The position numbers and the translations under genes are program-made. From Candidatus Binatia bacterium (GTDB lineage Bacteria > Desulfobacterota > Binatia > HRBIN30): 64,000 bases of DNA. The notes beneath the pieces are model-generated. The model was not told the DNA's origin. It worked only from the letters and a program-made list of their open reading frames with translations, and searched no databases. Position 1 is the stretch's first letter. The number at the start of each line of letters is the position of its first letter. Below are positions 6,513-42,152 of the stretch, piece after piece. Location of the stretch: NCBI GenBank assembly GCA_038245295.1, contig JBBRSP010000002.1, positions 192,001 to 256,000 of the forward strand. The letters are read 5' to 3'.

Positions 6513-6824
6513 GTCATTCCGGCGAAAGCCGGAATCTCCCCAGCATTTTTGGCCTTCCACTCGAGGCGATCCCGGCTTTCGAGTGTGTCGATTTACTCGG
6601 TAACCAAATTTGAAACCGAGCAGACCTATCCGTCATACCGGCGAAAGCCGGTATCTCGCCAGCTTTCGAGGCTTCCAGCAGGGGGAGATCCCGGCTTTCG
6701 CCAGGATGACGTTGCTTCATTTCAGTTCATCGACAGACTCGAAAGCCGGAATCCAGTGACGGAAACCCAGCCGAACGCACCGCTTCGATTCCGGCAATGG
6801 GTCCCGGCTTTCGCCGGGACGACG
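6513..6824 (+). mobile_element. REP family A doublets with a chimeric 160-bp MITE (6581-6740)
   Basis: GTCATTCCGGCGAAAGCCGGAATC palindromes; MITE ends GAGTGTGTCGA...TCGACAGACTC; homologous to the loci at 8434, 18068 and 41993. Confidence 0.8.
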
Positions 6825-8433: not shown

Positions 8434-8600
8434 CCGTCATACCGGCGAAAGCCGGTATCTCGCCGGCTTTCGAGGCTTCCAGCAACCATCCCGGTTTTCA
8501 CCGGGATGACGTTGCTCCACTTTGGTTTTACGACAGTCTCTTTTGCTGGGATGACGTTGCTTCGTTTCAGTTTATCGACAGTCTCCTTCGCCGGGGTGAA
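8434..8600 (+). mobile_element. Partial nested MITE/REP-A remnant with two right ends (8540, 8585)
   Basis: acgacagtctc then tcgacagtctc, in the same order as the nested element at 18068-18391. Confidence 0.75.
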
Positions 8601-16789: not shown

Positions 16790-17890
16790 CTACCGAGTTC
16801 TGAGCAGAGCGCGACCGGGAACCGGCGAGCGGCCGGCGAAACGCTCCGCCGGCCGGATCTTCGCCCATGCATCGAGTAGCGACGTCATCTCGCGCGGCGC
16901 GCTCGCATGCAGCACCACTCCGGCAGCGCCGGCGTTGAACTGGTCGAGGATGCGCTGGGCGCAATGCGCCGCCGAACCGGTGGCGTTGCTGCTGCTGAGC
17001 CATTCGGCCGGGTAGATGTCGCGGATGCGGCGCAGCTCGTCGTCGGTGAACTCGGTGGCGTCGGCGAAACGTCCTTGGAGCAACTCGTGGCCGCGTAGTT
17101 TGTCGAGGACACCGCGATCCCAGCCGTTGGCGTCGACGATGAGCTCGCCGTAGCCGGGGATCTGCATGTACGTGGTCATGCGGCGCACGACGTGTCGCAG
17201 CTCCACGGATTCGGGGAGATCGCAGGCGGTAACGAGGCAGGACCATACCTGCACGCTCTTCGGATCGCGTCCGGCCTTCTCGGCTCCGGCGCGGGCGCGG
17301 GCGACGCAATCGGCGACGGCTTGATCCGTCCAGTGTGAGTGCAGCAGGATGCCATCGAAGTGTTCACCGGCAAGCTGCTGTGTCTTTGGGCCCAACGCCG
17401 CCATCAGCAACGGCGGCGTGTGCTCGACGGTATGGTCGAGGCTCAAGTAGGCGAACTTGCCGGCCGGACCGTCGTGGCCGAACACCTTCTCTCCAGCCCA
17501 CAGGCGGCGCAGCAGTTGCGCCGTGTCGGCCAGCATCGCCGGCGTGGCGCGTGGGATGCCCCACATGTCGGAGCGCATGTCGAAGCCGCGGCCAAGGCCG
17601 AGGGCGAAGCGGCCGCCGGTGAGTGCGCTCATCGTCGAGGCGATCGAGGCGGTGAGCATGATGTGACGGGTGTTGGGATTGGTGACACCGACAGCAACCG
17701 CCAGCTCGCTGGTCAGCGCTCCGGCGGCTCCACTCAGTGTCGCTGCTTCCTTCACATCGTGGCGTTCGGAGATCCAAACCGAGCCGAGGCCGACCGTCTC
17801 GGCGTCGCGTACCTCTTGCAGCATGGGGCGCGGGTCGGCAACGCGGCCGGGGAGGGTGTAGAAACCAAGCTCGGGGAATCGTGATGGCAT
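16790..17890 (-). CDS. LLM-class F420-dependent oxidoreductase
   Basis: ELGFYTLPG, WISER, TNPNTRH, GGRFALGLGRG, AALGPK. Confidence 0.85.
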   Translation of the reverse strand: MPSRFPELGFYTLPGRVADPRPMLQEVRDAETVGLGSVWISERHDVKEAATLSGAAGALTSELAVAVGVTNPNTRHIMLTASIASTMSALTGGRFALGLGRGFDMRSDMWGIPRATPAMLADTAQLLRRLWAGEKVFGHDGPAGKFAYLSLDHTVEHTPPLLMAALGPKTQQLAGEHFDGILLHSHWTDQAVADCVARARAGAEKAGRDPKSVQVWSCLVTACDLPESVELRHVVRRMTTYMQIPGYGELIVDANGWDRGVLDKLRGHELLQGRFADATEFTDDELRRIRDIYPAEWLSSSNATGSAAHCAQRILDQFNAGAAGVVLHASAPREMTSLLDAWAKIRPAERFAGRSPVPGRALLRTR

Positions 17891-18008
17891 GGCGGTATCG
17901 TTTGCATCGAGTCGGCGGTGCGAGCAACCCCCGGCGCCGGGCTTCGACCCTTATGTTCCCGACTGCACTCGGCTTCTGAGTCCGCAGACCCAACCCTCAC
18001 CCTAACCC

Positions 18009-18435
18009 CAATGTCGTTAAGTTAGCGAGGGTGAGGGCCAATGCGGAGCCTCGTCATAGCGGCGGAGGACACTGTCGATAAACTGAAATGAGGCAACGTC
18101 ATCCCGGCGGAAGAGTCTGTCGTAAAACCAAAGTGGAGCAATGTCATCCCGGTGAAAACCGGGATCTCCCCCTGCTGGAAGCCTCGAAAGCTGGCGAGAT
18201 ACCGGCTTTCGCCGGTATGACGGAAAGGTCTGCTCGGTTTCAAATATGGTTTCCGAGAAAATCGACACACTCGAAAGCCGGGATCTCCTCGAGTAGAAGG
18301 CCGAGAATGCTGGGGAGATACCGGCTTTCGCCGGTATGACGGGGGTGTTTGCGCTGTTTGAAACGATGAATCAGAGAAAGTCGACAGACTCGGAGGCCGG
18401 GACGACGCACTTCTCTTGCTAACTTAACGACATTG
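18009..18435. mobile_element. IS4-like MITE (18-bp TIR CAATGTCGTTAAGTTAGC, 10-bp TSD ACCCTAACCC) inserted in REP-D
   Basis: TIRs at 18009-18026 and 18418-18435; direct repeats at 17999-18008 and 18436-18445. Confidence 0.88.
18068..18391 (-). mobile_element. MITE-1 (TSD GGAG) containing nested MITE-2 at 18113-18272 (TSD GGAA/GAAA)
   Basis: Ends GACACTGTCGA/TCGACAGACTC and GAGTCTGTCGT/TCGACACACTC; each unit is 160 bp once the nesting is removed. Confidence 0.85.
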
Positions 18436-18662
18436 ACCCTAACCCTCTCCTAGATCTTGCCGGACCATTCGAGCTGAGAGAGGGAACCAGTGGCTTCCGC
18501 AGGCAGCTTTTCCAGACCGCCCAGAATGAACGCGGTCAGTTTATGTATAGGAGGCCGCCTACAGAGGGAAGCGCCGGACGGGGGCCGTCTCGAAGGGCGT
18601 CCCAGATACTTCGCCGCGGCGATCACAACTGCTAAGCGACGGCGGAAAGAGGGAGAACCCAC

Positions 18663-19883
18663 ATGAGTAGAATCGTCGTTCTTGGAGGCTGTGGCGCTGT
18701 TGGCAGTGTGGCGGTGAAGACGTTGGCCAACCGGCCCGAGGTATCGCACGTCGTCATCGGCGACATGAACGACGCGCGCGCCAAGGAGCTGATCGCCACT
18801 CTCGGTGCCGAGCGCGTGTCGTTTCGAGCCGTCGACGCCGGTGACACGGCGAGTGTGAAGCAGGCGATTGCGGGCGCCGACCTGGTGCTCAACTGTGTCG
18901 GACCGTTCTACAAGACGGTGAAGACGATTCTTTCCGCCGTGCTCGACGCCGGCATCAACTACGTCGACATCTGCGACGACGTCGATGTCACGCTCGACAT
19001 CCTGAAGATGGACGACGCGGCCAAGCGCGCCGGCATCACGGCGTTGATCGGCATGGGCGCCTCGCCGGGTGTCACCAACCTGCTCGCCAAGTTCATCGCG
19101 GAAACGCAGCTCGACAGCACCGACTCGGTCGACATCTTCCACTGCCACGGCGGTGAAGCGATCGAAGGTCCTGGGGTCATCGGCCACCGCTTCCATTGCA
19201 TGAGCATCGACATTCCGATGTTCCTCGACGGTGAGCTGCGCTACGTGCGCTACTTCGAGCCCGACGGCATCGCGTTGCGTGAGACGTTCGACTTCCCCGT
19301 TCTCGGACCGATGCCCTTGTTCCCCTATCCGCATCCGGAGCAGGTGACGCTGCCGCGTTACTTGAAAGTACGGCAGGTTACCAACAAGGGCTCGGTGATT
19401 CCAATCGAGTATTACCAGCTCACCGCCGAGATGTGCCGCCTCGGCCTCACCAGCAAGGAGCCGCTACAGGTCGGCGGACAATCGATCACGCCGTATGACT
19501 TTGCGACGGCCTTCCTGATCCGCGAGCGTGATCGAATATTGCGTGAGCAGAATTTCGGAATGCAGCGCGGTTGTGTCTCGGTGGTCGTGAAGGGAATCAA
19601 GGCGAGCCAGCCGCGCGAGGTGCGTATCCATATGGCGTCGAGCGCCGGTGGACTCGGTGAAGGTACCGGAATCCCCGCGGCGATTGGGGCGTTGCTGGTC
19701 CTGTCCGGGAAGGCGACGACGCGTGGTGTGATTCCACCGGAGGGTTGCCTCGTGCCGACCGACTTCATCGTATTGGCGGGCGAGATCATGTCGTCGGGAA
19801 TGCATGGCTCCGGGCTTGGGCGCACGCCGCTCCTCGTGGAAATCATCAAGGCCGATGGGTCGGTAGAGAAGATGGAAATGTAG
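18663..19883 (+). CDS. Saccharopine dehydrogenase-like NAD(P)-dependent oxidoreductase
   Basis: VLGGCGAVG Rossmann motif, NCVGPFY, YVDICDD, GASPG, HPEQVTLP. Confidence 0.9.
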   Translation: MSRIVVLGGCGAVGSVAVKTLANRPEVSHVVIGDMNDARAKELIATLGAERVSFRAVDAGDTASVKQAIAGADLVLNCVGPFYKTVKTILSAVLDAGINYVDICDDVDVTLDILKMDDAAKRAGITALIGMGASPGVTNLLAKFIAETQLDSTDSVDIFHCHGGEAIEGPGVIGHRFHCMSIDIPMFLDGELRYVRYFEPDGIALRETFDFPVLGPMPLFPYPHPEQVTLPRYLKVRQVTNKGSVIPIEYYQLTAEMCRLGLTSKEPLQVGGQSITPYDFATAFLIRERDRILREQNFGMQRGCVSVVVKGIKASQPREVRIHMASSAGGLGEGTGIPAAIGALLVLSGKATTRGVIPPEGCLVPTDFIVLAGEIMSSGMHGSGLGRTPLLVEIIKADGSVEKMEM

Positions 19884-41992: not shown

Positions 41993-42152
41993 GAGACTGT
42001 CGATAAACTGAAATGAAGCAACGTCATCCCGGCGGAAGTCGGGATCGCCTCGATTGGAAAGCTAAAAATGCTGGGGAGATACCGGCTTTCGCCGGTATGA
42101 CGGAGGTGTTTGCGCAGTTTCAAACGATGAATCAGAGAAAATCGACAGTCTC
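41993..42152 (-). mobile_element. 160-bp MITE-1 within a REP-A hairpin
   Basis: GAGACTGTCGAT...ATCGACAGTCTC; flanks gaac/gttc inside gtcatcccggc...gccggaatgac. Confidence 0.85.

What the first reader, a model, noticed from the sequence alone, without database searches (positions are those of the whole stretch)
17994..18450. Three-level nest of MITEs, each inserted in a REP hairpin
Seen: a REP-D (ccctcaccctaaccctctcc) is split by an element at 18009-18435 with 18-bp TIRs and a 10-bp TSD. Inside it, a REP-A hairpin is split by MITE-1 (18068-18391, TSD GGAG). MITE-1's internal REP-A loop is split by MITE-2 (18113-18272, TSD GGAA/GAAA). Both inner units are exactly 160 bp. Known: some IS elements target REPs; CAATG/TAATG ends with ~10-bp TSDs fit IS4-type elements, and GAGxxTGTC ends with 4-bp TSDs fit IS5/IS1182-type elements. 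Inference: MITEs that both carry and target REPs create their own landing sites, giving a self-nesting repeat system that spans at least two transposase families.
Basis: partly seen in the sequence, partly recalled or inferred. Interest (0 to 1): 0.78.

Follow-up and report, generated by a model that had tools for sequence, protein, structure and literature searches.

The report
Two transposon families nested in hairpins
Three small gene-less DNA elements sit inside one another here, each in a short repeat; their ends match two different jumping-gene families, which likely moved them, and because the inner ones carry the same hairpin they land in, they likely multiplied most copies of that hairpin in this bacterial genome.

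Summary
The nest is real at the stated coordinates. The outer 427-bp element has IS4-subgroup ends and a 10-bp duplication inside a BoxC-like repeat; paralogous empty sites hold the 10-mer once. The two inner 160-bp units belong to an 81-copy family. Their ends match complete IS1182 elements of related genomes, and they sit in the 4-base loop of CGTC-type (Ssn-related) hairpins: 240 of 291 ends against 1% at random, with 4-bp duplications well above a permutation control. Each unit carries two such hairpins, and nesting occurs in both loops and both orientations. Corrections: the outer element does not carry its own target and is not in a hairpin loop; internal hairpins are not preferred targets; outer element plus MITE-1 likely jumped together as one composite. 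At least 423 of 515 hairpin arms lie inside four kinds of repeat carrier. No matching transposase was found in this assembly, and no empty allele of this locus in a relative. The scan noted the IS1182 self-nesting twice before in this genome and IS4-in-BoxC in other genomes. Verdict: a new variant of known repeat-targeting transposition.

The parts
17969..18008 (+).
   Evidence: Same flank joined to a single 10-mer at paralogous loci such as C63:6853 and C56:251; two C-rich blocks with a 3-base spacer as in the BoxC/TM consensus
18009..18435 (+). Outer IS4-subgroup MITE, here as a composite; inverted ends 18009-18026 and 18418-18435
   Evidence: each end matches the corresponding end of a complete IS4 element of G029 at 17 of 18 bases; a 167-bp version without inner MITE is at C11:196102
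18052..18067 (+). Left half of the CGTC hairpin carried by the outer element, with loop GGAG (first duplication copy, 18064-18067)
18068..18391 (+). MITE-1, beta subtype of the 160-bp IS1182-type MITE, interrupted in its first hairpin loop
   Evidence: closest to beta copies inside other IS4 composites, 117 of 119 and 40 of 41
18097..18112 (+). Left half of MITE-1's first hairpin with loop copy GGAA (18109-18112)
18113..18272 (+). MITE-2, alpha subtype, intact 160 bp
   Evidence: right end matches the left end of a complete IS1182 element at 16 of 19, left end matches its right end at 12 of 14; folds at z = -4.07
18142..18222 (.). Intact head-to-head pair of CGTC hairpins inside MITE-2; free loops at 18154-18157 and 18207-18210
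   Evidence: Both match the published Ssn-related-motif pattern
18273..18341 (.). Second loop copy GAAA (18273-18276) and the rest of MITE-1's hairpin pair; free loop at 18326-18329
18392..18407 (+). Second GGAG copy and right half of the outer element's hairpin
18436..18484 (+). Second copy of the 10-bp duplication (18436-18445) and the rest of the BoxC-like repeat, with a 24-base spacer before the G-rich block
16790..17890 (-). Neighbouring gene, luciferase-like monooxygenase (context, not part of the nest)
   Evidence: PF00296, E 3e-41
18663..19883 (+). Neighbouring gene, saccharopine-dehydrogenase-like oxidoreductase, divergent from the first (context)
   Evidence: PF03435, E 4e-20

Best explanation
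This is a stack of three gene-less elements from two transposon families, likely built by transposition: an IS4-type element sits in a BoxC-like repeat and carries a CGTC hairpin, and two IS1182-type elements sit in the four-base loops of such hairpins while each carries two more. Inferred order: (1) an IS4 MITE that carried a CGTC hairpin pair received a beta IS1182 MITE in its GGAG loop; (2) that 263-bp composite was copied as one unit to several BoxC-like sites, this one included, with a 10-bp duplication; (3) an alpha IS1182 MITE then entered the first loop of the beta copy. The IS1182 transposase most likely recognises the hairpin and cuts on both sides of the loop, duplicating it. Every jump adds two new loops, so the family supplies most of its own remaining targets. 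Shown: anatomy, copy numbers, targeting statistics, shared ends with complete elements. Inferred: the enzymes, the order of events, structure-based recognition.
For: Targeting: 240 of 291 ends directly follow a hairpin stem plus 4 bases, 1.05% at random positions. Duplication: 34 of 81 units have an exact 4-bp repeat, permuted mean 11.6, maximum 22 in 5000; no excess at 2, 3 or 6 bp, and 1 against 0.1 at 5 bp (p 0.08); 15 of 39 with uncommon left loops against 2.0 expected. Nesting in loop 1 (offsets 45/119), loop 2 (97/66) and in inverted orientation. Complete IS1182 element with these ends in the same kind of loop: G001:C570:5-1762, 544 aa, NF033551 311.6 bits over cut-off 270; the clade is in 9 of 401 genomes of the class, all in the window's order, and most of its loci show like ends. 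Complete IS4 element with the outer ends, an exact 10-bp duplication and the same site in a BoxC motif: G029:C251:56-1496, NF033592 154.5 over 115. Outer family: 12 of 16 loci of the hairpin-carrying type have a BoxC flank by pattern, 0.115% at random (my count); 7 of 13 paired copies have a 10-bp repeat with at most 1 mismatch. Composite: 15 of those 16 loci hold an IS1182 MITE or part of one (my count); a diagnostic left-end variant is in 5 of 6 beta ends beside the IS4 arm and 0 of 52 elsewhere, a right-end variant in 10 of 12 against 6 of 73; the 99-bp empty form was not found. Census: 339 of 515 hairpin arms, and 251 of 337 intact ones, lie inside IS1182 MITEs.
Against: No close IS1182 or IS4 transposase in this 96.6%-complete assembly; best matches 29%. 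No empty allele at an orthologous locus: no genome of the same genus was among the 30 relatives offered, and two read layings showed no joint across unique flanks. 30 of 81 units lack a direct duplication (17 inverted flanks, 13 other). Only 2 of 13 outer copies have an exact 10-bp repeat. The tree of 21 beta copies has 1 well-supported branch and needs 3 changes for the 'inside IS4' label. Internal loops are less often occupied than outside ones.
Confidence: 0.8

Rival explanations
1. The levels exist, but recombination or gene conversion between repeat copies, not transposition of a composite, placed MITE-1 inside many outer elements and built part of the nests.
For: Alpha/beta mosaics are common in the alignment; partial architectures such as two left ends with one right end (11 of 122 clusters) and 45-bp tandem left ends occur; 17 of 81 units have inverted flanks.
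Against: Inverted nests with loop duplications and insertions in loop 2 cannot come from simple unequal exchange; composites sit in both orientations at distinct BoxC-like sites with their own 10-bp repeats. The diagnostic variants do not separate this reading from composite transposition.
Confidence: 0.12
2. The hairpins spread mainly through their own small nuclease (an Ssn-type GIY-YIG protein), invading MITEs as they invade any DNA; MITEs only follow them.
For: A single-domain GIY-YIG gene at C22:5444 is flanked on both sides by these hairpins; the hairpins match the Ssn-related motif; the Ssn paper raises this hypothesis (PMC11893778, passages); MITEs with the same ends in other genomes carry other hairpin repeats.
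Against: Inside the 81 units the hairpin pair sits at one fixed offset with shared spacer sequences, so it was copied with the MITE. This reading can explain how the cargo was first acquired and the up to 92 unassigned arms, not the majority.
Confidence: 0.05
3. This particular nest is a chimera made by short-read assembly of near-identical repeats.
For: The genome is in 129 contigs; public contigs break at the nest and none listed spans it.
Against: All three duplications match across the junctions (one with a mismatch); both halves of MITE-1 point to the same sub-lineage; the two outer flanks continue one paralogous repeat; five same-orientation 323-324-bp nests with four ends exist elsewhere or here.
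Confidence: 0.03

Closest known systems
REP-targeting insertion sequences: IS1397, ISKpn1, ISPsy8 (IS3), IS621, ISPa11, ISPpu9/10 (IS110), ISRm22 (IS4 family), ISRm19 (PMC1525189; parts 1-2 of 6 read)
   Same: Insertion at a fixed point of a palindromic repeat, often at its axis, with a short duplication; mismatched flanks ascribed there to recombination or adjacent deletion.
   Different: Those are transposase-coding elements; in the parts read none is said to carry the repeat it targets or to nest in itself, and IS1182 is not among the five families named.
IS1272 (IS1182 family) of staphylococci (PMC5678879; passages)
   Same: IS1182-family element that targets stem-loops of differing sequence; tandem duplication of a terminal segment is reported; their model pathway c predicts duplication of the loop only.
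   Different: IS1272 removes the stem-loop and leaves no duplication; here the stem is kept and the 4-base loop is duplicated, and the mobile unit is non-coding and carries its target.
IS4 subgroup of the IS4 family (PMC2266710; passages and Table 1); ISPa1635-family proteins are 37% identical to the G029 transposase
   Same: End signature -AATR--------WTW----, 10-13-bp repeats, 1400-1650 bp, YREK motif; marked target specificity is noted for some members.
   Different: Target here is a BoxC-like repeat; the non-coding derivative carries a hairpin pair and a nested element of another family. The target figure of that paper could not be seen and its text supplements held none of four motifs searched.
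CGTC-tagged REPs (PMC3733652; passages) and NTS / Ssn-related motifs (PMC11893778; passages)
   Same: CGTC tag, short stem, 4-base loop, inverted pairs; match to the published pattern; a flanked single-domain GIY-YIG gene in the genome.
   Different: The first paper says CGTC REPs appear to lack a dedicated transposase; the second has no occurrence of 'MITE' and offers nuclease-driven expansion as a hypothesis. Here most copies are cargo of MITEs.
BoxC / PIT / TMECO intrastrand triplex motif (PMC4666352; passages)
   Same: Two C-rich 9-base blocks separated by 3 bases, then a complementary G-rich block.
   Different: Spacer to the G-rich block is 24 bases in 81 copies here, not 3-6; that paper found no transposase remnants at E. 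coli sites, whereas here the motif is an IS4 target.
Pneumococcal BOX, RUP and SPRITE clusters (PMC3049150; passages)
   Same: Small repeats of different families inserted into one another.
   Different: There it is ascribed to shared site preference or tolerance; no carried target or fixed insertion point is given in the passages read.

Membership tests
MITE of the IS1182 family (inner units) | Short, non-coding, multi-copy, terminal inverted repeats | tested here: met
   81 copies of 150-166 bp; 291 ends, 0 in control
MITE of the IS1182 family (inner units) | Ends shared with an element coding an IS1182 transposase | tested here: met
   G001:C570, NF033551 over cut-off; 16-17 of 19 and 10-12 of 14 end bases identical
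MITE of the IS1182 family (inner units) | Target-site duplication and palindromic target | tested here: met
   4 bp, 34 of 81 exact against 11.6 permuted; 240 of 291 ends at hairpin loops
MITE of the IS1182 family (inner units) | Cognate transposase present in the same genome | tested here: not met
   Best match 29% over part of the protein; the assembly is incomplete, so absence is not shown; not required for MITE status
MITE of the IS1182 family (inner units) | Mobilised in trans by that transposase | not testable with these tools
   Needs a transposition assay
MITE of the IS4 subgroup (outer element) | End signature -AATR--------WTW---- and 10-13-bp direct repeat | tested here: met
   Read against Table 1 of PMC2266710; ends and 10-bp repeat
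MITE of the IS4 subgroup (outer element) | Ends shared with a 1400-1650-bp element coding an IS4 transposase with YREK motif | tested here: met
   G029:C251, 1441 bp, NF033592 over cut-off; Y-R-E-K spacing read from the translation; 17 of 18 end bases
MITE of the IS4 subgroup (outer element) | Mobilised in trans | not testable with these tools
   No close transposase in G000
   3 matches in the nest; 300 in the genome against 29 reversed
   Flanked PF01541 gene of 117 aa or less at C22; cd10448 itself is not in the libraries; NCBIfam and PDB gave nothing specific
   115 in the genome against 1 reversed
   24 bases here and in 81 copies; 1 strict match in the genome. Filed as BoxC-like only
   Needs CD or NMR
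REPIN / RAYT system | Tyrosine transposase gene flanked by the cognate repeats | tested here: not met
   None of 5 PF01797 loci has arrays of either repeat; at most 2 loose single arm matches per locus

The most novel reading that the evidence does not exclude
A relay of mini-transposons from several unrelated families is the main way CGTC/Ssn-type hairpin repeats multiply in this lineage: each family picks up a hairpin pair as cargo, the IS1182 family lands in the loops it carries, and other families carry the resulting stacks to new sites as single units. This would steer insertions into already neutral DNA and give a DDE-transposase route for a repeat class described as lacking its own transposase.
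Probability: 0.5. Interest if true: 0.65.

Novelty: new variant of a known kind. Interest (0 to 1): 0.5.

Why it matters
How CGTC-type hairpin repeats reach hundreds of copies is open in print (PMC3733652; PMC11893778). Here at least 423 of 515 arms sit inside repeat carriers, 339 of them in one IS1182-type MITE family, and complete candidate transposases are in hand, so the question becomes a simple assay. An IS1182 clade that appears to aim at hairpin loops and an IS4 element that aims at BoxC-like repeats would also be useful for understanding, and perhaps exploiting, structure-guided insertion. No effect on the host's genes is shown; each ingredient is of a known kind.

Tried and rejected
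Rfam: no match in the window at gathering thresholds. Nine DDE transposase loci of G000 checked for the ends: none. A loose 14-base end pattern was too noisy, 125 and 92 control hits, and was replaced by weight matrices; the first hairpin census had 167 control hits and was replaced by a stricter one with 2. Collection scans for the junction gave MITEs or chance hits, no complete element; complete elements came from family and pattern searches in relatives. The joint 18004 to 18436 in runs X1 and X2 looked like an empty allele, but the same runs show two letters of the paralog on C63 beside it and it is treated as that paralog. A second laying on C53 showed no joint across a MITE with unique flanks; contigs cannot show absence. 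A 2012-bp pair of GGTAG-type ends on C13 encloses an ordinary gene, not a transposase. No IS1182 relative in plasmids at 1e-40. Of five plasmid IS4 relatives, ends were located in four and none had a BoxC flank. RAYT as the driver was rejected. One review on IS families was not held, so the general statement on IS1182 targets rests on PMC5678879's citation of it. Ten literature searches listed no paper on a bacterial MITE that carries its own target; the word 'mite' drew much noise and most subscription papers are not held, so absence from print is not established.

Full report
Observation. The window lies at C2:192001-256000 of a 6.63-Mb, 129-contig assembly of 62.6% G+C. The nest sits in the gap between two divergent genes, a luciferase-like monooxygenase and a saccharopine-dehydrogenase-like enzyme. 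The only two genome-collection hits for the inner junction pattern are titled uncultured Candidatus Binatia, so the host is likely in or near that group (inference).

Inner family. Pairing the inner ends genome-wide gives a sharp peak at 160 bp (52 pairs). Of 83 pairs of 150-172 bp, 81 align to one family with two subtypes, alpha and beta, and many mosaics. MITE-2 is alpha and MITE-1 is beta. Each unit is a 29-bp left end, a head-to-head pair of CGTC hairpins, and a roughly 50-bp right end. Weight matrices built from the ends alone find 291 ends and none in the reversed genome; 240 of them directly follow a hairpin stem plus four bases, against 1.05% of random positions. Flanks of the 81 units: 34 exact 4-bp direct repeats, 17 with one mismatch, 17 inverted, 13 other. 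Because most loops read GAAA, I permuted flanks: expected 11.6 exact repeats, maximum 22 in 5000; among 39 units with uncommon left loops 15 are exact against 2.0 expected. The duplication is therefore real and 4 bp long. The inverted flanks fit deletion between the two loops of one hairpin pair, by intramolecular transposition or recombination (inference; PMC1525189 gives the same reading for ISRm22); assembly error cannot be excluded for them.

Self-nesting. Among 122 clusters of ends, 50 are simple units and 40 hold three or more ends. Offsets of 45 and 119 bases mark insertion in the first internal loop, 97 and 66 in the second; inverted nests occur at C31, C33 and C19. Tandem duplication cannot give inverted nests with loop duplications.

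Inner transposase. None of nine DDE loci of this assembly has these ends, and a search with the partner protein gives 29% at best. In G001, same family, a 1758-bp element has the same ends, sits between GAAA and GGAA in a CGTC hairpin, and codes a 544-aa IS1182 transposase over the curated cut-off. Close homologues are in 9 of 401 genomes of the class, all within the order; most loci show the same ends, and some sit in loops of other GC-rich hairpins. That favours recognition of structure over sequence (inference) and agrees with IS1272, which targets stem-loops of differing sequence but deletes them (PMC5678879, passages).

Outer family. The 18-bp end occurs 34 times: 13 pairs and 8 single ends. 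Sixteen loci are of the hairpin-carrying type and five of a 203-bp type without it (my sorting). The ends fit the IS4-subgroup signature of PMC2266710. G029 holds a complete 1441-bp element with matching ends, an exact 10-bp duplication at the same place in a BoxC motif, and an IS4 transposase over cut-off. The target is two C-rich blocks with a 3-base spacer, 115 copies against 1 in the control; the duplicated 10-mer spans that spacer. The spacer to the G-rich block is mostly 24 bases, so I file it as BoxC-like, not BoxC. Paralogues on C63, C56 and others continue both flanks of the window with one copy of the 10-mer: these are the empty sites. Twelve of the 16 loci have a BoxC flank by pattern. 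Of 13 pairs, 2 have an exact 10-bp repeat, 5 one mismatch, 3 two mismatches, 1 three, 1 fits 9 bp, and 1 has inverted flanks. Two more distant IS4 relatives of nine loci examined also abut BoxC-like sequence on one side; four plasmid relatives do not.

The composite. C11:196102 is a 167-bp outer element with an intact hairpin pair and no inner MITE; the other 15 loci all contain IS1182 MITE sequence, in at least four arrangements. The commonest is 259-263 bp: a shortened single hairpin with beta in its GGAG loop. The window's copy is this form plus 164 bp. Both halves of MITE-1 score best against the beta copies inside those composites. Diagnostic variants are confined or strongly enriched there: 5 of 6 against 0 of 52, and 10 of 12 against 6 of 73. 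The empty 99-bp form was not found. The tree is weak: 21 rows chosen as beta-like from the 81, one starred branch, three changes needed, clustering beyond 499 of 500 shuffles, and one row mislabelled because its outer right end is lost. Best reading: one insertion of beta, then IS4-driven copying of the pair, then alpha. Gene conversion is the rival.

Who carries the hairpins. A strict census gives 515 hairpin arms, 2 in the control. By context: 339 in IS1182 MITEs, 20 in IS4 MITEs, 18 in a third MITE (154 bp, GGTAG ends, mostly 8-bp repeats), 46 in a fourth repeat of unknown kind, 92 unassigned, some of which are chance or decayed MITEs. Interrupted arms: 88 of 339 inside IS1182 MITEs, 40 of 92 unassigned. 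So internal loops are ordinary targets, not preferred ones, but they are 251 of the 337 intact loops left. 'Interrupted' includes tandem left-end arrays that may have arisen by slippage. The hairpins match the Ssn-related motif of PMC11893778, and a small GIY-YIG gene flanked by them lies on C22; a DUF559 gene flanked by BoxC-like pairs lies on C24. These nucleases may be the original sources of the two repeats (inference, untested). Tyrosine transposases of the genome are not flanked by either repeat.

Limits. No same-genus genome was among the relatives offered. Five runs from two studies hold the stretch; the best may be the source sample. Contigs break at the repeats and show no strain-level empty allele. 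No RNA data and no effect on neighbours were examined. Cluster midpoints fall in long reading frames at 28 of 122, against 81% genome coverage by the same crude measure.

Literature. What I saw: parts 1-2 of PMC1525189; passages of PMC3184786, PMC3733652, PMC10969869, PMC2266710 (plus a search of its text supplements; its target-site figure was not visible and may bear on the BoxC claim), PMC4666352, PMC5678879, PMC3049150, PMC11893778 and 10.1101/2024.06.02.596822. IS targeting of REPs, IS1182 targeting of stem-loops, IS4-subgroup specificity and small repeats inserted into one another are all in print. A MITE that carries its own target, and a second family that moves the stack, did not appear in ten searches. 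Earlier notes of this scan report the IS1182 part twice in this genome and IS4-in-BoxC in other genomes; they are not independent support.

Verdict. Real; transposition nest of an IS4-type and two IS1182-type MITEs, confidence 0.8; new variant of a known kind; interest 0.5.

Noticed in passing
G000:C22:5090-6150 (L187:1150-2210): Small single-domain GIY-YIG gene, Ssn-like, flanked on both sides by CGTC hairpin arrays that are themselves invaded by IS1182 MITEs and bounded by ends of two other repeat carriers.
   Followed up: partly
G000:C24:25890-26560 (L191:1300-1970): DUF559 nuclease gene flanked by two near-identical inverted pairs of BoxC-like repeats.
   Followed up: partly
G000:C5:63980-64133, C7:26074-26227, C13:33671-33824 and others: Third MITE family, 154 bp, GGTAG-type ends, mostly 8-bp repeats, carrying the same hairpin pair and often invaded by IS1182 MITEs; 15 end pairs listed, transposase family not identified.
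   Followed up: partly
G000:C13:25470-25680, C25:40990-41200, C41:41150-41350 and others: Fourth carrier of the hairpin pair, about 28 left ends and 14 right ends, without obvious inverted ends; often preceded by another short repeat.
   Followed up: no
G000:C26:9117-9319, C28:2648-2850, C70:1202-1366, C5:155858, C24:31101: A 203-bp IS4-type MITE subfamily with the same ends and different cargo; five of its ends lie in the stem arm of CGTC hairpins, so IS4-type elements hit both repeat classes.
   Followed up: partly
G000:C9:157975-158110 and C10:213088-213221: Four MITE left ends in tandem at a 44-45-bp period, reminiscent of the tandem terminal duplication reported for IS1272.
   Followed up: no
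L020, L035, L047, L058, L059, L064, L070: MITEs of 131-327 bp with the same IS1182 ends, mostly in CGTC loops, in other genomes and metagenomes, several carrying unrelated hairpin repeats as cargo.
   Followed up: partly
window 6581-6740, 8540-8585, 41993-42152: Further copies or ends of the 160-bp family inside this window.
   Followed up: yes
L172, L173: IS4 elements of another family of the class, 33-35% identical to the G029 protein, with BoxC-like sequence on one flank and no duplication.
   Followed up: no
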